A stretch of DNA of 64,000 bases, taken from Amphiscolops sp. MND2022 (Eukaryota). The notes below the pieces were generated by a model. The model ran no database searches. It was not told the origin of the DNA and was given only the letters and a program-made list of their open reading frames with translations. Both the position numbers and the translations under genes were made by a program. This document shows, piece after piece, positions 16,533 to 55,699 of this stretch (position 1 is the first letter of the stretch; each line of letters begins with the position of its first letter). The stretch is taken from NCBI GenBank assembly GCA_964187785.1, contig OZ076409.1, forward strand, positions 61,816,001 to 61,880,000. Direction: 5' to 3'.

Positions 16533-17008
16533 TTTTTCTTCGGACTACAATCATCACACTGATCGGTCCACTTTTTGGAAACATTCCAGAAACCACCTAA
16601 GGCGCCCAGTCCGTCCAAGGGGCCAAGGCAAACTGAGTGTAAAGGGTCCCCCTTTCTTTTTTACTTTTTCAAGGTAACCAGCAAAACCGGACGGGACTTA
16701 AGAGTCCCCCAATTCAATTTTTTTTCGGCACTGTGACACTTTTTTTGAAACTTTTTTTGTCTCCAAAGGGTCCCTGGAGAATGAGAAGAATTTAGAGGAC
16801 AAACTATGAGACGCTATTTAATCTATATAATTAGTCTCAAGTACCTGTTAATCTATCTCCTTCTTACGATGATTTATTTTAAGAAGCAGTGTGCTTGAAA
16901 TAGATAGAAAATACAGTTTTGCTGAAACTAAATTCTTGTAGCTTTACATTACAACATGGCGCAGTCAGTATCAGTCTAACTGATAAAAGAACACAAAGTA
17001 GCTTACAT

Positions 17009-20000
17009 ATGGACGACTCCAACAAAACTTCCCCATTAACGGGAAGCCAGCATAATCGGACAACCGATCAGTCAACAAGCAGTCGATCACTACCCAATGA
17101 CCAGACATTGAGGACGGGTGACCGGACGTGCACCCAGAAGCTATCCATACCAAGCCTGGAGAAATATGACAGCTCCAGTGCAAATCTCTGATGGCGGAAA
17201 TTTGTACAATATATCAAAATGACCAAAGATATTGATCTGTCAACTATGACAAACTCCAAAGGAAGACTGCCACAACACCGAGAACAACTGGAGATGGGCA
17301 TAAAAGACACTTTCCTATGGGCAATCGGACAAAGTGCACTAACAGAGATGACTAAAACGGTGAGAGAACGCGAACCCAGCATCTTACCATTACACAAACT
17401 ATACACACTATTCCGTTTACATTTCACTCCGGAGAGGAACGTCCAAAACAGTCGAGCCGACTTCTTTCATCTAAAAAGAGAAATAAACGAAACGGCGGCA
17501 GACGTATGGAAGAGAACATTGGATGTTGAAAAGAACTGTGAATTTGAGACAATAACAGCAGCCGAACTTATCGCCTCAAAATTCCTTTCACTAATAGGGA
17601 AATCCACAGGGGACTACGAACTAAAAAAGAAAATCAGAAAAAGCGACATGTCCATAGAAGCCATTACAGACGCAATACATGAGTACATGTACGAAAAACT
17701 GAATGAATCCCCAGAAACAGAAGAAGAAAAGAAAATTCGACACGTAGACAAAAGAAAACTAACGAAAAATACAGAACAAACCGAACGTTACCCGAAGACG
17801 AGACGACTGGACTGCAATAAATGCGGTGCACTTAACTGGTCCAAACAACATGAATGTCTCGCTAGAGGGAAGAAATGTGCAAAATGCGGTAAATTGGGCC
17901 ATTATGCAAAATGTTGCAGATCAATGTGGAAGATAAACCACATCGCGGATGAAGAAGCAGAAAGCGCAGATGAAGACGATTGGATACCAGACAAGATCCA
18001 TTCGATACAACAAAAAATAAATTCAGTCGGAACAGCGAATAAGAACGGAAATCCGGTCTACACAAAAACAATATTGGTCAACAACCGACCAATAAAATTC
18101 ATCGTCGATACAGGCTCACCGGTAACACTAATACCGAAGCTAAAATTTAACAGAATAACGGAGATCAATCCGGTACTAGAAGACTACCGGGATGTAAACG
18201 ATAACAAAATAAAATTTGAAGGTAAAACTTTAGCAAACATAGAATTTGACGGCAAATCAAAACAACTGAAACTACTGATAACCACAAAACAAACACACCC
18301 GCTACTTGTTCTCAACTGGTTGAAGAAACTGGGACTAACGCTGAAAACGGAAACCACACCCCAGTCCATAAACAACATTATCAGACCGGGCCTAAGCAAC
18401 AACAAAACCGACACTGACATCGCAACACTCAAAAGTAAGTTCCACAATTTTTTTTACAGAAAACCATACGGTTAAAAACGTAGAAGTTGACATCCAGCTA
18501 AAAGAAGGATCAAACTGAATCAACAAAAAGGGAGACCTATACCTATTCACTTGCAACCCGCGGTAGAAAAAGAAATCGAAAAACTGAAGAAACAAGGCCA
18601 CATCAAAAAAGCAAAAAATATCGACGAAAACTGTTTTGTAAGCCCCGCCGTTATCACAATTAAAAAAGATAGATCGGTAAAAATAGCCCTGGACTCAAGA
18701 AAGTTAAACGAAATTACGATAAAAAGAAAGGCACAAATGCCTAACATGGAGGAATTAATCTCCCGAATTTCCAGGAAAATAGCGGACGGACCAGCTGACG
18801 AAATTTGGATCTCAAAATTCGATCTCGATTACGCGTACGGTCAACTAAAACTCTCAAGGAGAGCAATGGACCTATGCATATTCGTGGTAATCGGTGGCAA
18901 CTTCACCGGATATTACCGGTTCCTAAAAGGCTTTTACGGACTGGCAGACATCCCCACAGTTTTTCAAGAAAAAATTGACCAAACACTGGAAAATAAACAC
19001 CCAGCGTGGCTAGACGATATAATCATAGTAACAAAAAACTCAGAGCAAAAACACATGGAAGAACTAATCGATGTGCTAACAAAATTGGAAAACGCAGGAT
19101 ACCGCCTCAGCGAAAGTGAATCCGAGTTTTTTAAAACGGAAATAGAGTGGATCGGTCACAAAATCGACCAAAACGGTATCAGACCGTTGCAAGACAAACT
19201 GCTGGCGATAAAAGAACTAAAAGAACCAAAAAACGAAAAGGAATTAAAATCCTTTTTAGGGGCAATTCAGTATTTGTCCAAATATATCGAAAATCTTTCG
19301 GCTCAAACAGACATCTTGAGACAACTACTGAAAAAGGACAGTAACTGGAACTGGACCACGGAACACACAAAAGCCTTTGAAAATTTAAAACAAAAAATCA
19401 CGGAAATACCGTGTCTGGCACATTACAATTCTGACTATCCAAACATAATTACCACAGACGCAAGCACAAAGGGCCTTGGAACCACAAGAACAACCGGACG
19501 GAAAATTAAAACCGATCGGATTTGCCAGTCGCTTCCTTTCGGATACGGAAAAGAAATACGCAATCAATGAACTGGAACTATTGGCGGTGGTTTGGGGGTT
19601 AGAACACTTCCGCTTATATATATACGGAAAACCGATAAAATTACTCACGGACCACCAAGCACTTGAACCTTTAATTAAACGCAACCGTTCAAATAAAACG
19701 TACAGAGCCAGGCTAACAAGGTGGTTGGACCGATTAGCTCACTTCTCAATTAACGTAAGCCATATTGCCGGCAAACACTTAGCACTCACGGATTATCTCA
19801 GTAGAAATCCGACCGCTCCACCACAAGCGGATGACGCATACGACGAAGAATACGTAATCAATAACATCGCGCCGCATCTCAAATTTATGAACAAATTCGG
19901 TTGCCTTAGCAACCAAATCGATCAATCACAACGCGAGAAATTACGTAATAAACCGAAACAATCCAAAACGCGCGAGCAAACTGCCATTGCTTGCCTTAAT

Positions 20001-22900
20001 CAACCGACAAATAGCTGCGCATACTTTGCACTCGGCAACTCAAAATCAATTATGGACGCACATACCATTGATAACCTCGAACGAACCGATCCTTCCGCAG
20101 AAACTAGAAATCTCATCGCACGATGGAGAGATATAGTAAAACCGGGAGTGTACAGAATATCCGGTGGTCGTTTGAAAAAATATCACGAACCGAGATGCTT
20201 GCGAAACGAGAGAAAAATTATCGAAGAACAACTCCAAATTGCAATTAGAAACCTGCAAAACAAAAACCCAAACCAACCCGAAGGCTTTCAACCACAAGAA
20301 AGGAGAAACGAGCAATGGACGGTAGACCCTTTCTGGGAGACGGACCGCCCACAACGCCCGCAAACCTCGACATCAACGGATAACACTCCGCCCCCAGGAC
20401 AACAACAATGGACACCGATGGAAGAAGGCGAGATCGGATCGGGATCAGAACAAGACCCGTCAGTACTGGAGGTCCCGGCAATCAACTGGGCCAAATACGT
20501 GGGCGTGAAGAGTGTCCAAAACATAACAAGACGAAAACGTCTAAAGTCGGCGCCATATCTAAGGCTCAAAAAGCGTAAAACACTTTTTTTGGAAAAAAAT
20601 TGAAATTTTTGAAAAAAAAATTTCTTTCAAAAGAAGTCGCATAGTGCCGAAAAATGTAAAAGGGGGGGCCCTTCTGGATTTATTAAAAAACATTCCGTTT
20701 TGTTTTCGAAAAAAAAATTATCTAAAAAAAATTTCGAAAAAAAGTCGCACAGTTCCGAAAAAAATCCAAAGGGGGGACCCTTTGGGCACGTCCGGTTTTG
20801 TATGTTTCCTTGAAAAAGTGAAAAATGAAAGGGGGGACCCTTTGGAGTAAAGCTTGCCTTGGGCGGACTTGGCCTCAGGTGCTCTGCGCAGAATTGAGAA
20901 TTGTAAAAAGTGGACCGATCAGTGTGAGGATTGTAGTCTGAAGAAAAAAAGAAAAAAAAGGTCACTGCTATAGTCGGGCATTTTTCCTTAAAAGGAAAAG
21001 GCGCCGACTAAAAACGGGGCACGCACCAAGAGTGGACGCTATCGAACAGAACAACTGGGACCTGGGAAACGCCGTCAGGGAAACGGAAAAACAAGTTGCA
21101 ACCGATCTGCAATTGTTGATTACGGAAACCACCAACGACCCGAGCTTGCTTAAAACATTGGTGTAACTCGAACGGCAACAGCACGACAACATTCCCGAGG
21201 AATATTCCATATATAAGAAGAAATTGTCTTCAAGATATGGCTGGTCTTTTTTGAAGACAAAATTATCGTGCCGAAAAATCTGAGAACAACAATTATTAGC
21301 CCTTTACACAAAGGGCACCCAGCAATAAATAAAATGTCAATGGCGGCAAGACACTTCTGGTGGCCACGGATTACCGAAGCGATCCAGAAGAAATGTGACA
21401 ACTGCGTCCCCTGCAAAATGGCCGGTAAGAGTATTAAACCTAACATACCCAGTACCGAAAAAAAACAGCTACCACCGCTAAGTAAACCAAACGATGAAAT
21501 ACAATTGGATTTCATCGGTCCAATCACCGAAAAGAACCGTAGATTTTACATTTTACTTTCAATGGACCGGTTCAGCAAATTGCCTGCGGCCAGTTTTTGC
21601 AAATCAACGGAAAGCCAAACGGCGGTAAAATTTTTGGAGCAATATATAAATCTAAACGGCATACCGAAAACAATTAGAACGGATAAAGCAACCGCTTTCA
21701 CAAGCCGGTCGTTTAGAGAATTCTGTAAAAACCACCAGATAAAATTGATATACGGAACGCCGTACATACATACCTCAAACGGACTGGTGGAACGGGGCGT
21801 AAGAACACTGAAAGAAATTTTACTGACTGACAAAAAAGCAGGCGAAAATTTCGGAAGAGCACTGGATATGGCTCTAGACGTATTGCGCAAAACACCCCAT
21901 ACAAGACTAAACAAATCCGCATTTGAACTGCATTACGGTCGGGAACCAAACACGGAAATCAGCAATTTATTAAACACTGACACCTTGAAAAAACTAACAA
22001 AAACGTCTATTTCACCCAAACCGGACACCTTACAGGTGTACTCATTCAACGGAGCTGGCGGTGTCTCTGACCAGCTGCCGATGAAACAGAAGAAAGGAGC
22101 TAAAGGAGTGAGTAAATACCCCTTCCTCTTTCACGAAAAAAAATAACAAAACCAAAATTCGGTAGTGCTTATTCGGAAAAAACTCAGCTAGCTATATCGG
22201 GTACAAACCATATCGTAACAACGGCCGATAACAAAATTATACATAGAAAAAACATAAGTAAACCAGTTTCTGAAATTACACAGGAGCCGAACAACAGAGG
22301 AACTGGGCCACGTGGACCGGACGGCCGATTCACAAAGTCACCCCGAACCTTCAACATACACGATTCGGACAGCGAATCGGAAGACACGGAAACGGAATCA
22401 CCGGCAGTGGTTACCCCCAAGAAGAGCGGTGCATTTGGAAGAGTACGCCCCACGAAACTGGTAAGAAACCGGTTAAGCTCGGCTTCACCCGGGGGACCAT
22501 CACCGTCAGCCCAGTCACAAAACACGTTCGGACCGATGACCATAATCACGGAAAACATGACATCCGAAGCTGTCGACCGCGCTATTGAAGACGCTAGGGA
22601 AACAGAGACGGAAATTCATCTCAAAGATCCTAACGGTAAGGCCTCTCATAATGTAACAAAATCCCCAAAAAAGGGGAGGAAGAGGAAGACGAACTAGAGA
22701 ATTCTGAACTAGAACTGCTGAGCAACCTTAGCTCAAGTACTGAAATAGAACAAGAAACAAAAGAACATAGCTTACGCAGATCAAAACGCTTAACCAAAAC
22801 TAACCCAATAATTAGACTGAACAATCCAGTACCTTCTGATTACAGGAAATACCGTCAAAAGACTCAACCAAAAAGCGAACCCAACTACAGAGTAAGGGCA
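17009..22900 (+). pseudogene. Disrupted gag-pol (Gag CCHC, protease, RT, RNase H, integrase)
   Basis: CAKCGKLGHYAKCC, FIVDTGS, DLDYAYGQL, WLDD, TDAS, LTDHQAL, HKGHP..CDNCVPC, LDFIGP, RTDKAT, SNGLVER in PR-RT-RH-IN order; several stops, frameshifts and one insertion; 3' end approximate. Confidence 0.93.
20525..21013 (-). mobile_element. HINE-like element inserted in the Gypsy pol
   Basis: Both diagnostic ends present in reverse orientation; interrupts pol at an AA/TT site without a TSD. Confidence 0.8.
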
Positions 22901-24011
22901 TCCAAACAACAGGCTTGTCCGGAAGAACTTCACAACGACCGGACCATACCAAATGACGCGACCGGAGAAACCGTGGCAATACCAAGCTTGGGCCGGCCTA
23001 CCGCTCACAAACTAAATCCTTACCCCCAATTGGACAGCAACCATCCAACCATGGAGGGGGGAATGAAGAATGAGAAGAGTTTAGAGGACAAACTATGAGA
23101 CGCTATTTAATCTATATAATTAGTCTCAAGTACCTGTTAATCTATCTCATTCTTACGATGATTTATTTTAAGAAGCAGTACGCTTGAAATAGATAGAAAA
23201 TACAGTTTTGCTGAAACTAAATTCTTGTAGCTTTACATTACAGTCCCCCCGTTCATTTTTTACTTTATAAACGTAACCTACAAAACCGGCCGAGACTAAA
23301 GGGTCCCCCCTTTTGATATTTTTGGCACTGTGCGACTTTTTTTCGAAAATTTTTAACGTCCCCAAATGGTCCCCCCTTTTGTTATTTTGCAACAGAATGC
23401 AAATTTATAAATCAAAAAGGGTCCCTCCTTTTACATTTTTTGGCGCTGTGCGACATTTTCCGAAAGAAAAAATTTTTCGAAAATTTCAAATTTTTTTCCA
23501 AAAGAAAATGTTTTGCGCTTTTTGAGCCTTAGATATAGCGCCGACTTTAGACGTTTCCGTCTTGTTTTATCTGGGCGCTACGAAACTTGCACAAAATTTC
23601 AAAACTTGAGAAGCTTACAATTAGCTGGATCATTTCGGAATAAATTCCGAGAACATTCGGTTTTGACTTTGAAAAAGTCTGATCGATTGGATTTTTATCA
23701 TCAATGAGACCTGTTCTTCTGTTGTTATCCATGTCTAGAAAAACAAAATTGAACAAAGCTTTGCATAAGAAGATGCAACTAGGAGTGGGTGAAATAACAG
23801 TAGAGTGAAGTTGCACATCGAATTACAGTTTTGACTAAATTGTCATTTCATTATAAGGTCTTTAACTACAGTAAAAAATACAACATCGAGTCGTTATTCC
23901 TGAAATAGCGGAATAGCAGAGAAATTAGTAAACAAGCAACCCTATAACAATCCTACTGTTATAAAAGTCCATCCAATTCCATTAGATGATTGGTCACTCT
24001 TTATTCTGTAG

Positions 24012-24915: not shown

Positions 24916-27070
24916 AAAATCAAATTTCATATATCAAATCAACTTTTTCCAAAATAGGAAGAGAAAATTCTTAAAAGTGAAACATTATAAGCAATTACAC
25001 AAGCAATTAGAAAAATAACACTTTTCTCTGACTACCCAGCGATCGAAGACATGGTACGCTTGCCAAGAACCATGGTAAATCGCTAGCTAGCCTTGCCAAG
25101 ATCTTACCATGATCTTACTGTCACGACCCGCTCCCGGTCGTAATTTTACTTGCTGCTCTGGAATACCAGGATTCGGCAGAGGACACGGACAAGGGCAGAG
25201 TCAATACTTTTAAACTTTGTTAAACTAATCAAATTCTACTTACAGTACAGCTAAATAGGTGCGAATAATTTTCCAAATACAGAATTCAACGTAAGCGTTA
25301 CGGAAGATTTTCAGAAATGACTTTAAACTAGCTAAAACTTCCGGTCTAATGTTTTCACACGCAACACCGTTTTATTTCCGGTTTTATCTTCTGAGTTTTC
25401 TATTCCAATCTAAATACTAAATAATTTTGCAAACGGGATCATTTTGGCGCTCCACACTAGAATGAAAACACAGAAACGACATTTAACTCCGAGATCCCAA
25501 CGGAGTCCATAAGATCTAAAATGAAAGAACATACAAAAATAGAGTGGAAATGTATTCCAATATTAAAGTAGTTGTTAAATATCCACTTAAAACCGCAGTC
25601 AAGTGATTTTAAGTAAATGTTTACAACGTTATAACAGCGTCACTCAACTAGGCTAGCAACGGGTGTTTCTATTTTTGCGGACCAATAGCGTCGATCGCTG
25701 GCGGAATTATCTGAGCTCATACCAATAGAATTACGCTTGGTTGCCCCTAGCAACGCTTACTAGCTAAGAAAAGAGAATAGAATCGCATACGCTCTCCGTT
25801 TTCACTCCGCCTGCTACTGCTGCTCAGCTATAACCAATCTTAATACGTACGGAGTGCTTACGGGGCGGATTGTAAAATTGTATTCCGTTGCTCAGCTATA
25901 ACCAATCCTAATACATACGGAACGCATTCGGAGCAAATTGTAAAAACAGCAACTATGAAGTATTGTTCTAAACAGAATTTAAACGGGATTTTTCTGAATC
26001 GACGCATTTTAATGGTTTCAGGAATAACTTTTACATAGGAAAAGCTGTACTGTAGGAGAGAATTGAAAAGTTTACCGTGTGTTTTGATCTTGCATTGTAA
26101 AGATAATACGTTAACATCACGTTGCATGAGACTTCCTTTTTAAAAGATTAATAACGAATATCATATTATTACGTTCCGTTGACGTAGTTAAAAGGACAAC
26201 GTGAGGATAACGTTTGGTGCTAGTTGTACCTAAGTAATCCCTTCAGCTAAAGAACACACATGTTACTTTTATCAATGATAATCAAGTATGAAGTTAGTGT
26301 TAAGATTGCTATGAAGTTCCTCCCCTATATTGCGAACAACTTTCATTTTGATGCTTTATACTAATGTTGGCGTAACAACGCTGGAAGTTCATACTCCATG
26401 CCTTTTGCTACAATTACCGTTGTGTTTACGTTTTATATGATTTTGTACCAAATAAGTATTTTTGTCATTCCATGATGCCTAACAGTGGTTCTAAGGCGTT
26501 TTAGTGAAATTCTCTCAGCATCATTTATCCTCTCTAATAACTAGATATTTCCATTTTCCAAAATTCCTAATTCCGTTTCATTTCCGTCGTCATTTTTGAG
26601 CGTCATTCTTTTGCTTCGAATCTCAATTTCCCAACTTGAATGCTGAATAATTGATCACGCCGGCGAGCCTACGCTGATGAAAATGTCAGCTAGACTTCTA
26701 TTTTGCCGCAATTTTGAAGCTCAAACAGGAAATGGATTATCTGAACAAAAATGATTTCAACAAAATTTTACGGAATGGTGACGCAACTAGGAATTTCGAT
26801 ACCTGAATTTATGACGCTGTGCTGAAATAATTTGAATCATTAGCGCTTTTTGCTGAACAAACCCGATTTTACGATACTTAGGAATTTTTAGGTGAGGAAC
26901 AAATGATGCTGGGAAGGTATAAATATGTAAAACATACATGTAATTCATTCAGTTTTAACCTGTTTTATAACAATTAGTTCTGTTCCGTTATCACAACGTG
27001 TTCAAAAGAAAACTTAAATTTTTGAAGAATTCAACTTTTCCAAAGATACTTTCTCTCTCTTTCGGCTAAA

Positions 27071-28449
27071 ATGACAACCAGAAGTCAGAAAAGGAAAGCT
27101 GTAGCTGAGCTAGTCTCAGGTGACTTTGAAACCTCCGTAAACGAAAACTCCCCGTTCGAAAGCCTTGTAGCTAGTTCTAGCAAAGTTCCTAGAATAAAAC
27201 CCGAGGGTCTGGCTGAGATAAAAACATCTCTAAGGAAGGAAATTATGTCTGATCTAACTAAAATACTTGCGGAAAACCAAAAGGAAATGCTTAAACTGAT
27301 AGCACCTTTAAACAAGAAACAAACTGTCCACATGAATGCTCAAGGCTCAGACTCCGAAAAAGAGAATGTTTCCGTAGCAAGGACGCCTACCCCCGTCAAA
27401 ACTCATACTGCGACTAACTCTAAAACAACACCGGTAAATAGTCGTAACATAGTGACAGGAGTCCTCAATGACTCTACCAACCAACCCACGAAAAGATCGA
27501 AACAACAATGCGCATCCAACGAGCAAACAAAAGACCACAACCGCAAACATTTCCAGCTACCAACCTACTTCCGATGCCGAAAGCACTCACTGCTTCGCTT
27601 CCAGTCTTCGATGGTGAGTCTGAAAAGTTTGAACTTTTTGAGGACCTATCCCGAAATAATATCAAAATGTATCCTCACCTAACCGAGATACAAAAGATCA
27701 ACTACTTCCATTCACTCCTACGAGGAAACGCGCTACAAGCGTATTGTAATCTAGATGACACTAAAAAAGACAACCTAGAAGAAGTCATAACGGCATTCAA
27801 ACGTCGCTTTGGCGATTTCCAATCATCCGCTAAAGCGAGATGCGAGTGGGATGCGCTGCATTTTGACCCCACTAAACAGAAACTCCATGAGTTCCTTGAC
27901 GCCCTGCAAAAAACTGCAAAAGAAGCATTCGGCTCAGAAGCACAAAGATTCATTGATAAAGCAATCTACGCCAAAATGCCGGATCACGTCAAGAAGATCC
28001 TCAACAGAGCATATTTGGAAGATAAGCCCTACAATGACATAGTTTTGCATCTTGAGAGAGAAATGAGATTAAACGGACTAGGTGCGCCCGACGAAACAAC
28101 CCTAGTCCCACTCAACACAGTGGACGCAGTAGTGACGGACGATAAAAAAGACCAACAACAACGAGGCCATTGCTTTCACTGTGGCAAATATGGCCACTAT
28201 AAAGCACAGTGTCGCAGACTTCAACGAGAGCGTTACAATATCGCCAAAACAACCACAAAAGACCCAGCCCAAAACGAAGCACCCAAACACAAGTGTGATA
28301 CATGTGGCAAGATGCACAAAACTGAGAACTGTTGGAACGGAGCCAATGCGGCAAATGACCCCAGAAGGAAGAAACGAGAATTCACCATTCCAACCAACAA
28401 AATCAGTGAACAACCTGTACCCACACTGTTCTCCCAGCTAAAAAACTGA
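27071..28449 (+). pseudogene. Gag of element A (starts inside 5' LTR; one frameshift near 27535)
   Basis: LPVFDGE..FELFE capsid motif, zinc knuckles CFHCGKYGHYKAQC and CDTCGKMHKTENC. Confidence 0.88.
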
Positions 28450-28869
28450 AATCGCCGCGCCTACGATTTGGGGAAAAAGTAGACGCGAGGGCGTACACGA
28501 TGGAGGACCCCCCAAACAGGTATGAGGAAGATTTTTTAACCGAATGTAATGAAGAACCAACTCAAGACTGGCAACGCCGTTGGAACGTAGGCATGATACT
28601 CAGGCATAACGTCAGACACCCAGAAGATCCAACGCCACTACCCCAGTGGATAACGGAGTCGCCCGATAACTATGCGACACTCAAAAGACCTAAAAGCCGT
28701 TGCCGGAATCAAAAACAGACCGAATTTATATATATGACAGAGACTACAGATGTGACCATTGGGATGAACCAACTATCTATGATACAAATAAACTATCCTT
28801 CAAAATCCAAGTCTCAAACCCTCAAGCTCAATCTATGGAGATTACAAACCTACCATCACCGCCGTCACC

Positions 28870-30313
28870 GATCCTGAAAAGAACAACACCATCCCCAACA
28901 GTACCCGTCACGAAATCAGCAAACAACGGATTCAGGGCTAACATCCGACGATGCAACAATTTCCGACTGCTATATTTTTTCGTCTTCGGGCGCTCAAAGT
29001 GACTCTCCACTTTCTCAACAAGCTCGCTAAAGCCTATAATATACACAAAACCAATGAGCAAACGAAACACCCAAGGTAAACGTCACCGCAACGCACTACA
29101 CACCACCACTAGGAGGCCAATCACAAACAAACAACAAACCTGTCTGTATTTGCCGAGCCGTACCCTCTTCTACAGTTGAAGCCAACTGACGGCCCAACTG
29201 CATCATTTCGGGTGACACAGGAGTTGCCGAAAACGATACGTCTTCTGCCCCTTCCAACCGCTCAAGGTGGCATCAAGCTCTGGGACCCGTGCTGTCCTTT
29301 TTAATTTCGGAGAAGACTCCATGAACTTCACGCTCGTCTTTCGGAAAGGAAACACCTTCCAACCTACAACACAAGCGTGATAAGAACTGGAAACTAGAGC
29401 CCGATAAATTGGCAAAGAGGAAAAAAAGAAAAAAAACACCAACATAAAGAACACAATCATGCAAGTACACAACTTACAGCCTGGCGTATTCTCCTCCTCG
29501 ACAGCATTTTCTTCTCCTGTGGAGGTGGTAGCAGCCTCACCTCCATGAGGCTCCACACTGACATCAAAATTGCCCGGGACTACCTCGGACAAATCGGGAG
29601 GAACAGCAGAGGAAACATCAATGCCCGGAACAACTGCAGATTCAGTAGTAGAACAAGCGGGAAGCAACGTCGTCAAAGCATCATTGATAGACTGCTCAGG
29701 AACCAACACTGAAGTCACCGGAGGCAACCTCAAAGAAAAACCCAGTGATGATAACCCCACGGGGGTAGCAGAGGTCCCACCCGTGGTGGTAGCGGAAACA
29801 ACAGCCAAGGAAGTTCCAGGTTGAGTTACTGAAAATCAAGATCTGGTTCAGACGCGTCAGAGTTACGGGTAAGACAATAAAGGCTGATCACCAAAATAAC
29901 AATAGTCCTATTGCCCAGGAAGTCAGAAAGATTTTACCAACCTGAAGAAGTGACTACAACTTCCGTTTCCGAAGGATAAGCGTCGTCTTCAGTGAAGCAG
30001 AAGTTAGTCTCATGCCCACTGAGAAAGCCAGAGACACCAGGAGGAACAGCGTCTTCACTCATGACCAAAAGTGACAACAGCGATTGTCAACGCAATCTAA
30101 AAAAGGAAAAAGAAATCAACAAAATAGAAATCACGTCGAGTAAAAGTAAACACGCTAAAAGAAAATTAGCAACGTCATCCCTACCTAACCAGGAAAATCA
30201 TCTAATCTTCAACTTCAGTGAAAACCTATTATGGCATTGATGGAAACAAAACGTCTCCGAAATATTCTACAGGTGGACAAAAATCACCAAGAAGTTCTGA
30301 AGAAAGATGCCAT
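28870..30313 (-). pseudogene. Five-exon antisense accessory gene inside element A (decayed, unknown product)
   Basis: Exons 30313-30185, 30096-29942, 29828-29478, 29363-29140, 29033-~28870 separated by four 88-114-nt T-rich GT-AG introns; three of four junctions keep phase. Confidence 0.65.
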
Positions 30314-30668
30314 TTTGGAAATTACGGAATATGAACGTAGAATATTCGAGAAGAAATCATTGATGTCATGACGTCATTGACCGAGAAAGAAACGGAACGT
30401 AAAATTAGAAACTTTTTCCTATAAGTTTCGACCAATCACAACGCATTTAGCAAGCTTTCCTTTCCCGACTCAAGTCGCACCGATACGAAAGCGAAAAAAC
30501 CGACCAATAGAATTTCGATGAAAATTTCGAAGGAAAGGAAATTGAAAGGGTCATTTGTCGTCCAAATCTTCAGCTTGACCAGCTCAACGCATAGAAATTT
30601 CAAATCTATTCCAGTTTTTCTGCAACTCAGAACCTGAAAATTGTCTCGAAAGCTCTCCGTTAAACAAA
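30314..30668. promoter_or_regulatory. Candidate internal bidirectional promoter of element A
   Basis: Lies between two divergent ATGs, each preceded by CAAA(A); palindromic TGACGTCA at 30369-30376; CCAAT at 30432 and 30504. Confidence 0.5.
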
Positions 30669-31354
30669 ATGAACAGCTACTCTTTAGTCATCGACATATC
30701 TTCTGATGAAGAAAACGCAAAAACGAGCACACCACTGAAAACACTACCGCTCAACATGATTGGCTCACTAAGTGATTCATCAATTGAAGTTTATCGCGGA
30801 AGCGATGCGGAACTGATTTCCACTTCCGGGTCACCTGAAACGGCACCGACGCCTAAGAAGAAAAGGAAAACAGGAAGAGTCACGTTCAATCACCAGCAGC
30901 CGACTCTGACACGGAATACTACGAAGAGCCAGACTCCCCGCAACGCCTACCTTCCCAAAAAAAACGTACTCCTGTTCTGAAGGAGACGGAAAATAACCCT
31001 GTTCTGGGAAATGAAAGAATACCAAACGCGGCAAAATTGAACGACCTGAATGAGCCGTCCTTGGCGGAATTGGAAGCTCTATACGGCCTGGACTTAGAGG
31101 ACCGAAATTACCTCGCATCCTTAGGCCGTGGACGCGGTCGGCACGCAACAAATATAAATCTGCCGCATCTAAAAGAAAACCTGCATCCTGTCGGCATAAT
31201 TAGACCCCCCGAGTGCTGTCCGGAGGAAATAGAACGCCTAGAGAAAGAAGTCCGTGAGTTGGACGAGGAAGAAAGGAAAATTAGAGACATGAAGGCGGGA
31301 AGAGGACGTGGCCCACTCCAGTCAAGGAAATACAATGGTCGCCCCCCCCCGTAA
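30669..31354 (+). pseudogene. Sense accessory ORF of element A (~228 aa after restoring one base in an A8 run)
   Basis: ORFs 30669-30980 and 31037-31354 join in the -1 frame through KRTPVLKETENN; motifs VIDISSDEE, PKKKRK, GRGRG. Confidence 0.6.
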
Positions 31355-33377
31355 TAATAAGGAAAGAAGTCCCACACTGTTATGCTTTACCCCTGTCACT
31401 CGCATCAAGAGGGGCCCTGTCACGACCCGCTCCCGGTCGTAATTTTACTTGCTGCTCTGGAATACCAGGATTCGGCAGAGGACACGGACAAGGGCAGAGT
31501 CAATACTTTTAAACTTTGTTAAACTAATCAAATTCTACTTACAGTACAGCTAAATAAGTGCGAATAATATTCCGAATACAGAATTCAACGTAAGCGTTAC
31601 GGAAGATTTTCAGAAATGACTTTAAACTAGCTAAAACTTCCGGTCTAATGTTTTCACACGCAACACCGTTTTATTAACGGTTTTATCTTCTGAGTTTTCC
31701 ATTCCAATCTAAATACCAAATAATTTTGCAAACGGGATCATTTTGGCGCTCCACACTAAAATGAAAACACAGAAACGACATTTAACTCCGAGATCTCAAC
31801 GGAGTCCATAAGATCTAAAATGAAAGAACATACAAAAATAGATTGGAAATGTATTCCAATATTAAAGTAGTTTTTAAATATCCACTTAAAACCGCAGTCA
31901 AGTGATTTTAAGTAAATGTTTACAACGTTGTGACAGCGTCACTCAACTAGGCTAGCAATGGGTATTTCTATTTTTACGGACCAATAGCGTCGCTCGCTGG
32001 CGGAATTATCTGAGCTCATACCAATAGAATTACGCTTGGTTGCCCCTCTAGCAACGCTTACTAGCTAAGAAAAGAGAATAGAATCGCATACGCTCTCCGT
32101 TTTCACTCCGCCTGCTACTGCTGCTCAGCTATAACCAATCCTAATACGTACGGAGCGCTTACGGGGCGGATTGTAAAATTGTATTCCGTTGCTCAGCTAT
32201 AACCAATCCTAATACATACGGAACGCATTCGGAGCAAATTGTAAAAACAGCAACTATGAAGTATTGTTCTAAACAGAATTTAAACGGGATTTTTCTGAAT
32301 CGACGCATTTTAATGGTTTCAGGAATAACTTTTACATAGGAAAAGCTGTACTGTAGGAGAGAATTGAAAAGTTTACCGTGTGTTTTGATCTTGCATTGTA
32401 AAGATAATACGTTAACATCACGTTGCATGAGACTTCCTTTTTAAAAGATTAATAACGAATATCATATTATTACGTTCCGTTGACGTAGTTAAAAGGACAA
32501 CGTGAGGATAACGTTTGGTGCTAGTTGTACCTAAGTAATCCCTTCAGCTAAAGAACACACATGTTACTTTTATCAATGATAATCAAGTATGAAGTTAGTG
32601 TTAAGATTGCTATGAAGTTCCTCCCCTATATTGCGAACAACTTTCATTTTGATGCTTTATACTAATGTTGGCGTAACAACGCTGGAAGTTCATACTCCAT
32701 GCCTTTTGCTACAATTACCGTTGTGTTTACGTTTTATATGATTTTGTACCAAATAAGTATTTTTGTCATTCCATGATGCCTAACAGTGGTTCTAAGGTGT
32801 TTTAGTGAAATTCTCTCAGCATCATTTATCCTCTCTAGTAACTAGATATTTCCATTTTCCGAAATTCTTAATTCCGTTTCATTTCCGTCGTCATTTTTGA
32901 GCGTCATTCTCTTGCTTCGAATCTCAATTTCCCAACTTGAATGCTGACTACTTGATCACGCCGGCGTGCCTACGCTGATGAAAATGTCAGCTAGACTTCT
33001 ATTTTGCCGCAATTTTGAAGCTCAAACAGGAAATGGATTATCTGAACAAAAATGATTTCAACAAAGTTTTACAGAATAGTGACGCAATTAGAAATTTCGA
33101 TACATGAATTTATGACGCCGTGCTGAAATAATTTGAATCATTAGCGCTTTTTGCTGAACAAACCCGATTTTACGATACCTAGGAATTTTTAGGTGAGGAA
33201 CAAATGATGCTGGGAATGTATAAATATGTAAAACATACATGTAATTCATTCAGTTTTAACCTGTTTTGTAACAATTAGTTCTGTTCCGTTATCACAACGT
33301 GTTCAAAAGAAAACTTAAATCTTTGAAGAATTCAACTTTTCCAAAGATACTTTCTCTCTCTCTCTCTTTCGGCTAAA

Positions 33378-34067
33378 ATGACAACCAGAAGTCAGAAAAG
33401 GAAAGCTGTAGCTGAGCTAGTCTCAGGTGACTTTGAAACCTCCGTAAACGAAAACTCCCCGTTCGAAAGCCTTGTAGCTAGTTCTAGCAAAGTTCCTAGA
33501 ATAAAACCCGAGGGTCTGGCTGAGATAAAAACATCTCTAAGGAAGGAAATTATGTCTGATCTAACTAAAATACTTGCGGAAAACCAAAAGGAAGTGCTTA
33601 AACTGATAGCACCTTTAAACAAGAAACAAACTGTCCACATGAATGCTCAAGACTCAGACTCCGAATCAGAGAATGTTTCCGTAGCAAGGACGTCTACCCC
33701 CGTCAAAAGTCATACTGCGACTAACTCTAAAAGAACACCGGTTAATAGTCGTAGCTCTTACCAAGATCTTGTCAAGGATACCATGATTATGCAAGATCGT
33801 GCCAAGCGTACCATGTTTCACCATGATCTTGGCAAGGATGCCAAGATTAGCCATGATCTTGACAGGGGTACCATGGTTAACCATGATTTAGCAAGATTAA
33901 CCATGATCTTGGCAAGCTTAGCGTGTCTTCGATCGCTGGGTAGAAAAATCAAAAGACAACCTGTTGACAAAAAATTATATTCCCATTTAAAAAATGAAGC
34001 TTTCCGCATACCGAAGTCTAGCGACGGGCGTTTTCTGACTAGTGGAATGATTATTAAATTTACATGA
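33378..34067 (+). other. Chimeric ORF: 3'-LTR copy of Gag N-terminus reading into flanking MITE/host DNA
   Basis: First ~126 aa match the 27071 ORF; the rest translates the MITE and flank. Confidence 0.75.
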
Positions 34068-36899
34068 TGTTTGTCCCATTCGATGTTGCATAAATTAGTT
34101 TGAAGTAACTCCAAATTAAACAGAAAACATCCAGAAGTTGTCAAAGAAGTTCATATGTGTGACGTAATCGGATCGAAACTTGGCGTTCACACCTTGTATG
34201 TTCTAGAAACTCTAAACACATGTATATAACCAGCATGTCGGTGCTTAGTAGCTTGTCTTAGTATTCTTTTCCATTTCTGGTTTTTAGTGAAGCAGTCACG
34301 ATGACTTTTGATATAAAATTAAAACGGAGGTTAGCGGAGACAAAAATTCTAGAAATCAGTGCTTGACAAAGACAAGATAGGATTTATAATAGCTAGATTT
34401 GTTGCACCGATGGCATCACATTAAAACCATGAAACATTTGTTTTTCTGTCACAGTGTACTTTGATGTCTTTAATTTGACACTCAGCGCATTTCCCTCGAA
34501 CAAATCTATTAGTCATTTATGCCAATGGCTCCGCTTCGACAACTTTACATGCAACATGAAAGCATCTTACATCTTGCACATTTCTCTCTGTTCTCTGCCG
34601 CCTTGCAGAAACTGCAATTGCAATGGTGTTAGCTATGGGAAATAGGGGGGTTCTTCGGTTCGATCCAATTGATTACACAGATTACAAAGCAAAAAACAAT
34701 GCGACATTGATGGTCATTCATGCTTTCAGCCGCTGACATTTATCTTTCATTGTCCTTATCATTTACAATTGTATCGTGTTACAATTTGTCAGTGCCAAGC
34801 TCTTAGTCAGCGAAAATTGGTCAGAACTCCGGCGATTCGTTTCTGCTTGACTTTGCACCATTTCTGTAATCGAATACTACTCTGTACATTGAGTCGGCCA
34901 GCCTTCGCTGTAGTCCCAAACATTTTCATGTTTTCTGCTACTTTTACAGGCGCCGGTTATAAAACTATAAAAGTTACAAGCGTGTAGAAGCTCAACAATT
35001 CTCAATATATTAAGTGCATAGATAACATTCTCAAGCGTTTCTTGAAATTCAGTTTCCATTATATTCAAACATTCTTTCCCCAATACATTGCCGCGACTTT
35101 CATCAACTAGCACCAGTTAACATACCACGATTTATAACACAGACTCCTACTCCGGTTTCTGTAAAGTCCAGTCAACTTAATAGACATAATCACAAAGTGG
35201 TAATTCCAAGCCTGTATACTGAAAACATCCGAAGACGGTAAGTTTGGAATTCTCTTCAATTTAATCCCCCTTTGTTAGTAAATTGATGCGCTCCGATTAA
35301 AATGAGCGATGTTCCGTTCTGACAGCGCCAACTTTGTATATCAATCAAACTAACTTTGATCTGCAAAATTGGCCCGAACACTCGTGTTTCTCGTATCAGA
35401 ATATTCAGTTATATCAAATAGTTTTAACTGCAGTTTAGCTCACTGGGTTTGAAAATGGCTCCCTCAACCGAAACCGGGAATTTCGGCGTGATCATCAAAG
35501 TGAAACAGTTTTTCAGAAGAAGTAAGACAAAGAATTTTTCGCTTGAAACACCGTTTTGTTACACACACGTTTGAGTAAAACGAATGTTCACCTCTAAATA
35601 TCTTGAAAAACAAACGGAGTAGTTCCAATGAAACAATATACAACTTGAAAACAAGAGCGGTCTCAAGGCTAAAGAAGACCAGAATCCGTTTCAATATGCT
35701 CAGTAAAACTCACCATGCTGAAAATATCCAAACGCGGGACCATTTAGGATCGAAAATATATATATTTTTTCTTCCTAAACAGAAACATCCCAGTGTCAAA
35801 TATCGTAAATCTCGTACCTAAATCTCGCATATTCGTACATTATTACGTTCACTCTTGAAAGCCTTGATAAGATCTTGTTTATTCTTGCTTCACAAAATCC
35901 CTTGATTTGTTGATAGGAATCTTGGTATGAATCAAGAGCCTCGAGATTGAAAAACTTGCAAAAAAATGTTTTCATTTACAAACACTGTCCTAATGTTCGC
36001 ACTACCAGTTACACTATATTTCTTTCAAGCCTTGCTTTTAGACCAACGCAGAGTATTGTGTCGCGTTATGACCAACGTTTTTGACCAACAGTCACTATTT
36101 GAAAAACACCGAAATTATTAAAAAACTAAACAATCACCCCAAGAGTACAGTGCGGTTTATATTCAAAAAATACCTGCAGAAATAAAAAGCATAACAATCC
36201 TCTTTGTGCTACTGTGCCGTTTATAATTACAAAACACCTGCACTAAAAAAACTCATCAATCATCCCATGGCTACGGTGCTGTTTGTATTCAAAAAACACC
36301 TGCAAAAACAAAACAGTAAACTGAACTGACCTGGAGAAAAGAGGGGGATGGAGATTAATAAATAATGAAGAACGCAGCTGTAAAACAATAACTGCAGCCA
36401 AACAAAAGAAAAATAGGAGATACTAACACCGCAGGATTGCACAAGTGAAAACATCTTTAATTTACCGCGGTGATATAAATTTTAAGCAAAGCTGTGATTG
36501 GTTGCTTGCAAATCATGCCGGCCAGGCACCCTCTCAGATTTCTTTTGCGGTTTTTATACGACGAACGCTGGCTGAAGATTCATTCTGCCAGCAAAACCGG
36601 AGGTGCTTCAACACAAAAAAGCTCTCTTCCTCCTTCAATTCTCTCTCACTTATCATCCCTTGCTCCATCTCTCCCTCTTTCCTTAATTTTCCTTTTTTGA
36701 GTTAATTTTCATTTGGACTTAAAACGTCTATCTTTTTCTCTCTCCTTCTCTTGTTTTGGTTCTCTTCCCAGCAAATTTCTTTTGTCCCAAAGTTTGCTAA
36801 GTTACACTTCTCCCAACGGAATTTTCTTTTTTTCCCTACTTTTCTCTCGTGGAGATTTTTCTCTTTTCTAACTAAATTGTAAGAATAATTCTTAAAATA

Positions 36900-37555
36900 T
36901 AAATTATCTTATAATAATTCCGCTCGTTTCATTCTGTGACTGTTTAAATTCTATCTTAGAACAATTCCGCTGATTTCATTCTGCAGCTGTTTAAGTTTTA
37001 TTTTAGAATAATTCCACTGATTTCATTCTGCGGTTGTTTATTTCCTATCTTAAAATGAATCCGTTGAGTTCATTCGGCGGCTGTTTAACGTCTACCCTAA
37101 AAGAATTTCGCTGATTTCATTCTGTGGTTGTTTAGTTTCTATCTTAGAATAAATCCGTTGAGTTCACTCTGTGCCTGTTTAAAAATTATCCTAGGCGAAT
37201 TCCGCTGATTTCACTCTGCAGTTGTTTAATTTCTATCTTAGAATTATTACGGTGGTATCATTGTGCGCGGTTGTTTAATTTCTATCTTAGAATAAATCCG
37301 TTGAGTTCATTTTGCGGCAGTTTAAAGTTTATCCTAGACGAATTCCGCTGATTTCTTCCGGCGTTTGTTTACTTTCTATCATAGAATAATTACGCTTGTA
37401 TCATTGTGAGTTCCGCTGTTTTCATTCTGCGGTTGTTCAAATTCTATCTTAGAATAATTCCGCCGGTTTCATTCCGCGATTGTTTAAATTCTATCTTAGA
37501 ATAATTCCGCTGATTTCACTCTGCGGTTGTTGAATTTTGATCTTTGAAAATTCCG
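36900..37555 (+). repeat. 47-bp satellite, ~14 units
   Basis: Consensus ATTCTATCTTAGAATAATTCCGCTGATTTCATTCTGCGGTTGTTTAA. Confidence 0.92.
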
Positions 37556-40542
37556 TTCTTTTGCTGAGGTAAATAACAAGTTGACGTTACATAAGTTTAC
37601 CTAAGTAATTTTACCAAGTTCGTCTTGTAATGTTTTTTCCCTCAGCAGTCTTAATGCTATTCAAGTATCCACTGAATAGAGACATTGAAAAACAAAAACT
37701 CGTCAGTTTAAACTAGTACTGATTTGTAAACTGTATTTGTTATGACGTGATCTAAAAACTTTTTCAAAATGAATAGTTTCTATAACTATATGTTTTATAA
37801 CTGAATGACTATAACTATGTTCTGATATACTAAGAAGTGAACTCAGAGCAACTTTTTGTTGAAGAAAGATTTACGGCACTCGCTACTGAAGGTAACAAGA
37901 ATTGGAATGAATACTGCTTTGCCTAGAAAATATTACTCTGTATTATTGCTGTTCACGTGATACAATTCAACAAATTTATTGCCTATACCTCTTCTTTTTA
38001 CAGATAGCTCATTCACATACACTGCCTTGCACTTACTCACGCGTTTCCCTTCGTTCGCACGTACACGCAAGGCACTTCATTTTTGTCAATACTCGGAGTA
38101 AGCTATTGGGACTTCCTTTCTCATTTCTAGTCATTAATAGACGGTCGCCTGAAAGTACCTTACAAAACGCAAAAGCAGCTGTGCTGACTAATGCTCACAA
38201 GAGTATAACAGTCCCCTGAAAATGAAAACAAGAAATCATAAATGAAAAAGTTTTCCTATGCGTGCGGCAACTGAAATTGAGAATGTGATAGTTTGGTTGG
38301 TATTATGAACGGCCACGATTTATTAGGTACGCTGAACGCGCCGCAACTGAGGTCGGTTTTTGTTTTTCTTTTCTTTTATTTTTGTAAGCTTTTCCTTGAA
38401 ACTTTTGGCAAGATCGTAAATTTTCTAATGAAAAGATTTTTTTTGAGATTCTCAACAAAGCTTTCACAAAAGTTCAAGATTCCTATCAAAAAACCAAAAG
38501 TTTTCAAACAAGGATAGACTATCCAAGGGCGAAAACTTATAGAGAACTAAAAAAAAGTTCCAGGAGAAGATTGCTGCAAAGTCCCAAAAGGTGACACGTT
38601 TGTATCGTCTAATTTTATTACAATCAACATAAAATTATAAAATAGTTTTCATTTAACCCCGAGACTGCTTGACAAAAAGTAGCCTACGTTATCTCTTTGT
38701 TTCGCGCGGGAAAATGGTTTCCATTTCTTATCCAGTTTTGAGAAATACAAGATACGAATTGGAAAAACTTTCGACATCTTTTTCATCCTCCTTTTTACCC
38801 AAAAAAAACTAAGAATGAAAAAAACTTTTTCGTCATTTTTAGGCTAAAATGTAGCCTATAAAATGCTTTTGCAATTTACGAAACCAAGGACTCGGTATTC
38901 GGTCTCGGTTCTGAGATAAAGGTGATCAAAGGTGAAAAACACTCAAAAATTGCGAAAGTTTTCAAACTTTTTTGCCAAAAAACCATGCAGTCATTTTTTT
39001 GAAACATTTTTTCGGTGAAAATATAGGCTAGGATCTTGCGCAACGTTTAGCGAAAACATGGTAACCATATCTATTCTCTGTTTTGAGAATTTTGCCTCAC
39101 AAATTTGAAAATTATGCACATGTCATGAAATATGCGAAAAAACTCGACCATATGGGCATCTATTACAGCTCGCAGCCCCAACAAGAGAATGTAATTACCT
39201 TACAATAATGGAAGGTTTTCTAGGTGAGCTAGGAATTTCAGTTACAACAATAAACTCCCGATTTCAGATTAAAAGTTTCAAGCTCAAAAAGTTTTTCATA
39301 CAGTCTTTTTTTCCTCCATTTTGGGTTTGGTTCATGTCACTGAGAAGTAACATGAATGAGGCCTTTCAATTTGTAAAATGATACAGCTAAATTTTATTTG
39401 AGAGTGCTGAAACTCTCATATGCTGCAGGCCTGCATGCATGGTAGTTTTTAAGTAAAACCTGAAAATTCTGAAAACATCTGGCGGTAAAGTTTTGTGCAT
39501 TACTCTGCAGTTTAGCAGTTTCCATATTAAAATTAAAACTGGAAAATTTTACACTTAGTAACCGACATGATCACTTGGTTTCCACAGTTTGACTTCTCAA
39601 CCACTCTTCTGATACAATAACCGCTTCTCAAATTCTTAATATGATGCTAGTTTCTATTGTAGATGAAGTCAATTTGCAATAATATGGCGGTAAAATTGAT
39701 AACTTCTCAGCTGTTTTAAGAATAAAACTGCTTTTCGATGAAACCTGCAGACTTCAAGGAGCTTGATGAAAGTTGCTGAATACAACAGGCAAAATTTTAC
39801 GCCTGAAAGATTCCGTAACAGTTTCAGAAAATCATAGTAAAAGTTGTTGTCAACCTTCAACAATTTGAAAATTTTCTAAAACTGAGTAAAATTCTTGTTT
39901 TAAATGTTTTAAATGTTTTAAAAATCCCGATGACTTGTCAACTGAATCACTCTAAAACTGAAAACTTGTATTCAGAATATATGCTTTTCAAACTTGCATC
40001 TATTCTGTAAAGTATACTAGAGTACATCTTCTTCTCAGTACTTTACAACGGCGACAGAAGTTGGCGAGTTGAAGCAGCTGTCTCTGGGTGTATTTTTTGG
40101 CGCTACAAACCGCTCGTCCAATGCATGCAATAAACGTTTTGGATGAAACACTGATTCGAGGACTTCCAGATTAATAATTTAAAAAATATATCAGCCCACC
40201 AGACCATTTCGCATTTTCGGAATTACGGGAATTCATAAATTTTTACAGCTCAACGACAGTTTTGCTGATTCTACATAGAAGTTTGTCAACACTCGGTACA
40301 CGTGAGGCAATTGTCTTTGAAGAATTGGAGTCAAGAAAAAAATAATGAAATATTGCATATGAAAATGTAATTGAGATGAGAACATCTTAAGGACTAGGTA
40401 AGTGGAGAAAAAGGAAGGGAATAATATTTTTTACGATTTAAACCTTTAGAATTTTATGAACGGTATTTTTGGCGTCAATCAAGTTCTTAATCATGATACT
40501 GTTCATTTTGTACATTTAGCCACTCAAATAAGACACTTGACA

Positions 40543-41668: not shown

Positions 41669-42319
41669 TCAAAAGAAAACCCAAAAACTACAGTTTTTGG
41701 AATCTTTACTTGATAATTTCAACTGACAGTACTCTGAAGCTCCTTTATGCCCGGGGTTATTGTAAGGACTTAGGTTCCTCAAATCACATGCAGACCTGGA
41801 GACCTTCTTCGAAATTTTTGATCTCAACCCATTTATCTGTTCTCCATTCTCCTGACTCTTTGGGGACGAACTGACCTCAGTGTCCTTGTTTCCTGATGAA
41901 GGCATGGAACTTACAAAACTACGGATTTCTGGTATTACCCTGTCAGATATAGCAGAGCTTATAGCCCTGTTGATCTGAGAATGCATCATGGACATCATAG
42001 AGTCCATCTCCTGGGAAAGTCTCAGATTAAACTCAGTCGTAAACGTTTCTTTTGATTGTAAAACTTCATCTCGTCTAGGAATGTTGTCTTCACAACTAAT
42101 ATTTCCAAAATCACCTTCATGGTGAAAGTTATCCATTGGACGCTGATCGGACTCAATGCCATATTGGACTGTTGATTCCTCAATACCATTAGCTAGTTCT
42201 CTCTCAATTGGATTAATGTTTTCATTGCCTACTATTATGTCTAAATTATCAAAGTCAGACATCATGTCCATTTCTCTAGATCTCCTTGCTTTCGCTTTCT
42301 GTCTCCTCGTAGAAGGCAT
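41669..42319 (-). CDS. LTR-encoded Gag N-terminal domain ORF (216 aa, last ~30 aa from flank)
   Basis: Homologous to the start of the 59647 ORF (RLSQEMDSMM..QINRAISSAISDRVIPEI vs RISREMDEMM..QIQRAINDAISNQVLPQI). Confidence 0.7.
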   Translation of the reverse strand: MPSTRRQKAKARRSREMDMMSDFDNLDIIVGNENINPIERELANGIEESTVQYGIESDQRPMDNFHHEGDFGNISCEDNIPRRDEVLQSKETFTTEFNLRLSQEMDSMMSMMHSQINRAISSAISDRVIPEIRSFVSSMPSSGNKDTEVSSSPKSQENGEQINGLRSKISKKVSRSACDLRNLSPYNNPGHKGASEYCQLKLSSKDSKNCSFWVFF

Positions 42320-55575: not shown

Positions 55576-55699
55576 GTTCAGGGTCAATTTGAGGCATTTT
55601 TCTTTCTTAAAATGAACTTATCTCGTGACTAAAGCTCACCAATTGACCACATTTGCCCATGTTTTAGGCGTTTTAGCATTCTAGTTCACCAAGTCTATC

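What the first reader, a model, noticed from the sequence alone, without database searches (positions are those of the whole stretch)
30314..31354. Divergent partner ORF with SIM-like, NLS-like and RG motifs behind a bidirectional promoter
Seen: 355 bp from the antisense ATG a sense ORF begins MNSYSLVIDISSDEE, contains TPKKKRKT and two GRGRG tracts, and ends just before the 3' LTR; one -1 shift in an A8 run restores ~228 aa. The spacer has TGACGTCA and two CCAAT boxes. Established: hydrophobic core plus S/D/E is the SUMO-interacting motif consensus, PKKKRK is an SV40-type NLS, and SUMO participates in transposon silencing. No signal peptide or TM segment is evident, so this is not env. Inference: a nuclear accessory protein, possibly anti-silencing, forming a two-gene cassette with the antisense gene.
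Basis: partly seen in the sequence, partly recalled or inferred. Interest (0 to 1): 0.7.

Follow-up and report, generated by a model that had tools for sequence, protein, structure and literature searches.

The report
Divergent accessory gene pair in retrotransposon
A damaged jumping gene carries an extra, family-wide gene for a predicted-disordered protein that starts with a highly conserved motif likely to bind SUMO, set back to back with a likely spliced gene on the other strand, so these elements may bring their own nuclear regulators.

Summary
The ORF is a real accessory gene of a large LTR-retrotransposon family, broken in this copy. Searches found 117 relatives at the 50%-identity level, none named and none with a Pfam family. 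The SIM-like start is nearly invariant (33 of 37). The PKKKRK signal is confined to one branch (18 of 40).

The frame breaks at 30890-30893 and again near 31345-31351, not at the A8 run. The gene does not stop before the 3' LTR: unbroken copies (about 244-289 aa) run through the polypurine tract and about 30 codons into the LTR, with a conserved His/Cys tail.

The antisense partner is likely a multi-exon gene with four ~100-nt GT-AG introns. Distant relatives carry a BED-like zinc finger that this copy lacks. Its apparent membrane segment is likely an intron.

A shared promoter is plausible (CRE plus two CCAAT boxes, 0.08% of shuffles) but untested. SUMO binding and anti-silencing are inferred only. 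[quoted passage not shown]

The parts
25114..25118 (+). left target-site duplication CTTAC (right copy 33757-33761)
   Evidence: sequence
25119..27449 (+). 5' LTR, TG...CA, 2.3 kb; its first ~90 nt repeat the tail of the sense gene and its last ~380 nt hold the start of gag
   Evidence: 97.7% identical to the 3' LTR, 46 mismatches; tail match at 25118-25210
27450..27461 (+). primer-binding-site-like stretch directly after the LTR (tRNA not identified)
   Evidence: near-identical 12-mer inside the related gag at about 60222
27071..28449 (+). gag, starting inside the 5' LTR, frame broken once near 27500-27680
   Evidence: DUF1759 E 9e-9 (above cut-off); Retrotrans_gag and zf-CCHC below cut-off; 36% identical to the gag at 59647
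28410..28900 (+). likely start of pol after an A6C slippery site, cut off; no protease, RT or integrase follows
   Evidence: ORF; no Pfam hit; inferred from position only
28900..29033 (-). last surviving exon of the antisense partner gene; similarity to relatives ends just before their zinc finger
   Evidence: 44% over 48 aa to P0199, E 1e-10; 45% over 29 aa to P0297/P0303
29034..29139 (-). predicted intron 4 (106 nt, GT-AG)
29140..29363 (-). predicted exon of the partner gene; frame broken in this copy between about 29230 and 29310
   Evidence: 35 of 36 natural copies keep frame here
29364..29477 (-). predicted intron 3 (114 nt, GTAAGT donor, T-rich); reads as a false membrane segment
   Evidence: only 27 of 58 natural copies keep frame across it
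29478..29828 (-). predicted exon, S/T/P/V-rich, with a 17-aa unit present in 1-3 copies among relatives
   Evidence: 47 of 53 natural copies keep frame; spans 103/106/123/140 aa
29829..29941 (-). predicted intron 2 (113 nt)
29942..30313 (-). 5' part of the partner gene: predicted intron 30097-30189, candidate starts at 30313 (9 codons open) and 30062; true start unresolved
   Evidence: no relative covers it
30314..30668 (.). spacer, candidate bidirectional promoter: TGACGTCA 30369, CCAAT 30432 and 30504, CpG observed/expected 1.5
   Evidence: read-through translations P0196 and P0226 are compatible with both CCAAT boxes 73 nt apart, against 72 here
30669..30890 (+). sense accessory gene, first segment: SIM-like VIDISSDEE, STPLK, NLS-like TPKKKRK
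30893..31348 (+). sense accessory gene, second segment: YYEEPDSP, LNDLxEP, GRGRG, one long helix, second GRGRG
31345..31512 (+). sense accessory gene, tail: IPHC...RGALSRPAPGR...CC, running over the polypurine tract (31407-31414) into the 3' LTR
31418..33756 (+). 3' LTR; terminal CA is altered in this copy

Best explanation
This is a conserved accessory gene of an LTR-retrotransposon family, broken twice in this copy, whose predicted-disordered product likely docks on SUMO-modified nuclear proteins through its N-terminal motif and, probably with the zinc-finger protein of the likely spliced gene beside it, would help keep the element expressed. Shown: the gene family, its motifs, its overlap with the LTR, the break sites, the partner's head-to-head position in this copy, and frame loss in the partner's T-rich stretch. 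Inferred: both genes are transcribed outward from the 355-bp spacer. The partner's introns survive because they lie antisense to the genomic RNA that is reverse-transcribed. The sense gene has no intron for the mirror reason. The partner supplies DNA binding, and the sense protein is a phospho-regulated SIM scaffold that meets the host's SUMO-dependent chromatin machinery. This copy lacks most of pol and the partner's zinc finger.
For: 41 relatives of 220 candidates and 117 representatives at 50% identity among 1.84 billion proteins. In two large clusters 13 of 15 listed members share one full length (287 aa; 244 aa). SIM pattern in 25 of 37 (strict) and 33 of 37 (loose) representatives anchored by a different motif, with conservative V/I/L/F exchanges. 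The pattern arises in 1.4-1.8% of shuffles and fits the hydrophobic core plus Ser/acidic stretch described in PMC12751080 (passages). The model is mostly low-confidence coil with one confident helix, 177-203. Tie to the element: the tail lies in both LTRs, and P0223 joins a gag start to the tail. Partner: frame kept in 47 of 53 and 35 of 36 copies over predicted exons against 27 of 58 over the predicted intron. Four GT-AG introns of 93-114 nt. Relatives P0199/P0297/P0303 hold a CxxC...H...H finger, with an atlas lead to zf-BED/zf-C2H2_12. SUMO is needed for piRNA-guided silencing in Drosophila (10.1101/533091, abstract).
Against: No RNA, promoter or binding data. The SIM is a loose motif, and the profile that collected the relatives includes it, which biases the count upward. 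The NLS is absent from one whole branch. No Pfam hit for the finger; the atlas score of 0.86-0.87 is a lead only. P0297/P0303 are distant, and whether they lie in retrotransposons is unknown. Only 4 of 65 contig lengths holding the partner also hold a close sense relative (control 1 of 65). P0199 joins the finger exon and the sense tail on one strand, which a plain deletion in a divergent layout cannot give. Part of the tail's conservation may reflect the polypurine tract and LTR end rather than protein.
Confidence: 0.45

Rival explanations
1. Rev/CERV-like RNA adaptor: the Arg/Gly-rich, His/Cys-bearing C-terminal half binds the element's genomic RNA and promotes its nuclear export or stability, with the SIM only setting location or turnover.
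For: GRG kept in 23 of 25 and IPHC in 28 of 37 representatives; 7-10 RG dipeptides in three near-branch members. Cer1 CERV is a nuclear accessory protein from the same position that exports genomic RNA (PMC10309623, passages).
Against: No sequence link to CERV was found; CERV has predicted folded domains and is spliced to gag exons. RG is sparse (2-4) in the divergent branch. The SIM is at least as well kept as the RG part.
Confidence: 0.2
2. Integration or cell-cycle cofactor: SIM plus S/T-P-x-K sites tether the integration complex to SUMO-rich chromatin or time retrotransposition in dividing cells.
For: An S/T-P-x-K/R site in all 6 members examined and KEN in 4 of 6. Nuclear import of the integration complex is one role proposed for extra ORFs (PMC7264820).
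Against: Such short motifs are common in disordered proteins, and no chance control was run for them. A separate promoter fits a trans-acting regulator better than a particle component.
Confidence: 0.12
3. Self-limiting module: the pair recruits, rather than resists, SUMO-dependent repression, or the antisense RNA dampens the element.
For: SIM proteins also act on the silencing side. Antisense transcripts may feed small-RNA silencing (PMC7264820).
Against: The family is large and diverse, with many unbroken copies. The partner keeps protein-level frame.
Confidence: 0.1
4. The motif is not a SIM (another short linear motif, or DNA/RNA-level constraint), or the ORF is a passenger without current function.
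For: No binding test; loose consensus. The tail overlaps obligatory LTR signals. This copy is broken.
Against: Hydrophobic-to-hydrophobic exchanges and a kept acidic run across branches of about 30-45% identity. Length-uniform unbroken clusters.
Confidence: 0.13

Closest known systems
[quoted passage not shown]
   Same: Position, family-wide conservation, antisense orientation of one gene, own internal promoter and nuclear protein (shown for Grande gene23), non-autonomous derivatives.
   Different: Here two genes face outward from one short spacer. The sense gene has no membrane segment and ends inside the LTR. No TRP28 or other Pfam domain. The passages read report no SIM, intron or bidirectional promoter for Retand (0 hits for these words).
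CERV of C. elegans Cer1 (PMC10309623)
   Same: Non-env nuclear accessory protein in the env position of an animal LTR element; NLS candidate, Cys motif, phosphorylation.
   Different: CERV is 517 aa, has predicted folded domains and is spliced to gag exons; 'SUMO' does not occur in that paper's main text. This protein is predicted disordered, unspliced, and showed no detectable similarity.
VANC anti-silencing proteins of Arabidopsis VANDAL DNA transposons (PMC5735166, PMC10398659; listing only)
   Same: A transposon-encoded trans factor that counters silencing is the role proposed here.
   Different: Different element class and kingdom; no homology shown; function untested here.
Viral SIM-bearing antagonists such as HSV-1 ICP0 (PMC3174244; listing only, SIM detail recalled)
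   Same: A SIM used by a mobile element to reach SUMO-dependent repression.
   Different: ICP0 has a RING ligase domain (recalled); no enzyme domain is seen here.

Membership tests
LTR retrotransposon (non-autonomous copy) | two LTRs, target-site duplication, PBS/PPT, gag | tested here: met
Ty3/Gypsy versus BEL/Pao | RT phylogeny and pol domain order | not testable with these tools
   pol is missing in this copy; gag hits DUF1759 above cut-off and Retrotrans_gag below; no DNA of complete copies was found
additional ORF 3' of pol (aORF-3S / aORF-3R) | ORF between pol position and 3' LTR, kept in many copies | tested here: met
env / env-like | signal peptide and transmembrane segment | tested here: not met
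   max KD19 0.41-0.76 in 6 members; the partner's hydrophobic stretch behaves as an intron
SUMO-interacting motif | four-residue V/I/L core followed by Ser/acidic run, in a disordered region | tested here: met
SUMO-interacting motif | binds SUMO | not testable with these tools
   no eukaryotic SUMO sequence was at hand for a complex prediction; needs an experiment
classical NLS protein | K(K/R)x(K/R) cluster kept across the family | tested here: inconclusive
   18 of 40 representatives; confined to one side of a 99/97 branch
bidirectional promoter | divergent transcription starts in the spacer | not testable with these tools
   motif content above chance; no read data could be examined
Retand antisense ORF | TRP28 (PF04195) domain | tested here: not met
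   no Pfam hit for P0045, P0199, P0297, P0303
BED-type zinc-finger protein (partner gene) | CxxC...H...H finger scoring against zf-BED | tested here: inconclusive
   pattern visible in P0199/P0297/P0303; atlas lead 0.86-0.87; no Pfam score; finger absent from the window copy
CERV / Rev-like | homology or genomic-RNA export activity | tested here: inconclusive
   no named, Pfam or PDB relative; activity untested
VANC-like anti-silencing factor | sequence-specific loss of silencing at cognate elements | not testable with these tools
   needs an experiment

The most novel reading that the evidence does not exclude
An animal LTR-retrotransposon lineage carries its own two-component counter-silencing system: one bidirectional promoter drives a spliced zinc-finger protein that recognises the element's DNA and a SIM scaffold that intercepts the host's SUMO-dependent (piRNA-type) chromatin silencing. 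It would be a retrotransposon counterpart of plant VANC.
Probability: 0.2. Interest if true: 0.85.

Novelty: new variant of a known kind. Interest (0 to 1): 0.58.

Why it matters
SUMO is central to piRNA-guided transposon silencing in animals (10.1101/533091, abstract). My searches turned up no retrotransposon-encoded SIM protein or animal counterpart of VANC. A family-wide SIM protein with hundreds of natural variants makes the question 'do animal retrotransposons encode counter-silencers?' directly testable. The layout is also unusual: genes overlap both ends of the LTR, and a multi-intron gene rides antisense inside a reverse-transcribed element. Prokaryote-style ORF calling misreads one of those introns as a membrane segment.

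Tried and rejected
No whole genome is held. No sequencing run and no RNA holder was listed, which is no evidence either way.

No related locus was found in the viral, metagenome or prokaryote collections, by protein profile or by DNA pattern. Copy-level DNA comparison, dN/dS and a direct pairing test were therefore impossible.

No family hit for the sense protein: Pfam (0 of 15 members with a convincing hit), NCBIfam, PDB sequences (best E 1), atlas. For the partner's relative P0303: nothing in Pfam or NCBIfam, and only weak tweety matches over the hydrophobic stretch.

The single-sequence model of P0297 had mean pLDDT 39, and the sense model is mostly coil. No fold search was run on either, and no complex prediction was sent.

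A search for long (>370 aa) partner relatives gave 1 of 258 candidates. Earlier scan notes held nothing by place or sequence.

Rejected: frame break at the A8 run; a 228-aa protein ending before the LTR; env; the partner as a membrane protein; CCAAT pair alone as evidence. The putative pol start shows no similarity to the pol remnant at 61448.

The contig-length co-location test (4 of 65 against 1 of 65) is inconclusive: gene calls miss these ORFs, and this copy's own two proteins were not listed.

Full report
Setting. The finding lies in an 8.6-kb LTR element (25119-33756). Its 2.3-kb LTRs are 97.7% identical (46 mismatches), and it has a CTTAC target-site duplication, a PBS-like stretch and a short polypurine tract. 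Gag starts inside the 5' LTR (27071) and scores against DUF1759. After a slippery A6C site about 150 codons of a likely pol start follow, then no protease, RT or integrase. This copy is therefore non-autonomous, and its superfamily cannot be fixed.

Observation. The motifs and distances are as stated. Two CCAAT boxes alone are unremarkable (12.4% of 5000 shuffles); with TGACGTCA the combination is rare (0.08%). The frame story is wrong. Natural relatives match the first frame to 30890 and the second from 30893, so the A8 run is not the break. A second break lies at 31345-31351, and matches continue to 31509, inside the 3' LTR. Of 75 held relatives that reach this point, 53 read on into the tail.

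The gene is real. The second-frame segment found 41 relatives among 220 candidates, all unnamed ENA proteins without Pfam domains. A profile of 15 natural members found 117 representatives at the 50%-identity level. All that I read look like members or fragments of this family. Clusters of 82 and 19 members each have 13 of 15 listed members at one full length, 287 and 244 aa. Of 236 proteins held, 60 run unbroken from the SIM to the LTR tail; these range from 54 to 289 aa and so include internally deleted ones.

Motif counts among the 117 representatives that cover each position: SIM 25 of 37 strict and 33 of 37 loose (two of the four misses are starts called inside the motif); YYEEP 43 of 50; LNDLxEP 29 of 41; GRG 23 of 25; IPHC 28 of 37; RGALSRPAP 23 of 36; basic NLS-like cluster 18 of 40. 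The patterns were drawn up after seeing the alignment, and the collecting profile contains the SIM, so these counts lean high. The SIM pattern arises in 1.4-1.8% of 20,000 shuffles per protein. On a tree of 24 chosen members the NLS-bearing 13 form one side of a 99/97 branch. The two GRG tracts appear to come from a duplicated LNDLxEP...GRG module; the divergent branch has one (by eye). AlphaFold on a 45-row alignment of natural members gives mean pLDDT 59, pTM 0.24 and one confident helix at 177-203. The tail overlaps the polypurine tract and the LTR start, so part of its conservation may be at the DNA level. Its His-Cys and Cys residues may bind metal (inference).

The partner. The longest antisense frame (29206-29835) found 28 relatives among 524 candidates; with cluster members I held 74. 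Four GT-AG introns of 93, 113, 114 and 106 nt with pyrimidine-rich acceptors can be drawn. The last three join the flanking frames in phase. Natural copies keep frame over the predicted exons (47 of 53; 35 of 36) but leave it over the third intron in 31 of 58 cases. That T-rich stretch, which reads as a membrane segment, is therefore likely an intron. The last exon matches P0199 (44% over 48 aa, E 1e-10) and more weakly P0297/P0303 (the preceding exon matches P0303 at E 0.004). These go on into a CxxC...H...H finger and, in P0297/P0303, some 350 further residues that include another intron-like stretch. The atlas links the finger loosely to zf-BED/zf-C2H2_12 (0.86-0.87, a lead only); Pfam does not score it. 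In this copy the likeness stops at about 28900, where the presumed pol start ends, so one deletion probably removed most of pol and the finger (inference). The ATG at 30313 has the AAAATG context of the element's other starts but opens 9 codons; 30062 is the alternative.

Cassette and promoter. Read-through translations show the spacer is homologous in other copies (P0003, P0169, P0188, P0190, P0196). Two proteins from the divergent branch (P0196, P0226) read peptides compatible with both CCAAT boxes 73 nt apart, against 72 here; codon degeneracy leaves this unproven. Pairing in other copies is not shown. Only 4 of 65 partner-bearing contig lengths recur among close sense relatives (control 1 of 65), and the gene calls are patchy. 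P0199 joins the finger exon and the sense tail on one strand, which is unexplained. No DNA of other copies and no reads could be obtained.

Mechanism. Most likely (0.45): an internal promoter drives both genes. The partner binds DNA, and the sense protein docks on SUMO-modified chromatin factors through a phospho-SIM, favouring the element's expression. The SIM definition is from PMC12751080 (passages); SUMO's role in piRNA silencing is from 10.1101/533091 (abstract). I put the gene being real and element-borne at about 0.95, SUMO binding at about 0.6, and a true counter-silencing role at about 0.2-0.3. Rivals: Rev-like RNA adaptor 0.2, integration or cell-cycle cofactor 0.12, self-limiting module 0.1, non-SIM or passenger 0.13.

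Comparison. Sense and antisense extra ORFs 3' of pol are well known in plants and fungi; Grande gene23 is nuclear and has its own promoter (PMC7264820, parts 1-2 of 3 read; PMC11963269, passages). Bdelloid rotifer elements carry varied ORF3s (PMC5408684, passages), and Cer1 CERV is the functional animal precedent (PMC10309623, passages). Boty brtn is an antisense gene (PMC8365987, passages); that such genes are spliced I have only from unchecked scan notes. PMC13524379 held nothing relevant (passages). Searches listed no paper on a divergent accessory pair, an LTR-crossing SIM gene, or a retrotransposon-encoded SIM protein. I saw listings only, the library lacks most subscription papers, and no supplements were read.

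Verdict. Observation partly confirmed, interpretation partly supported. New variant of a known kind; interest 0.58.

Noticed in passing
window 59617-62599: A second, related element: gag 36% identical, read through a near-identical PBS-like 12-mer (about 60222), then a pol start joined to what looks like an integrase tail (internal deletion; integrase likeness recalled, no Pfam hit).
   Followed up: partly
window 16775-23242: Gypsy-type element with 179-bp LTRs (97.2%) and protease, RT, RNase H and integrase hits; a stretch of shorter repeats (about 20500-21000) is inserted between RNase H and integrase.
   Followed up: partly
window 2170-11634: Three tandem copies of a 3.17-kb unit, 97-98% identical, with 15-nt microrepeats; a diverged partial copy lies at 57522-58048.
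   Followed up: no
window 41669-42328 (minus): ORF resembling the gag N-terminus of the 59647 element (MPSTRRQKAKARRSREM...), probably an LTR-borne gag start of another family.
   Followed up: no
P0199 and P0223: Natural chimeras: finger exon fused to the sense tail on one strand (unexplained), and gag start fused to the sense tail (internal deletion).
   Followed up: partly
window 45904-46579 and 47061-47731: A 676-bp direct repeat at 97.9% identity, 1156 bp apart; possibly a small LTR pair or tandem duplication.
   Followed up: no
window 36891-37570 and 55664-56702: Degenerate tandem arrays (47-nt unit; about 184-194-nt unit).
   Followed up: no
window 29034-30189 (minus) and P0297: Several predicted donors read AG/TG|GTT rather than GTA/GTG; if confirmed, this is a host splice-site habit.
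   Followed up: no
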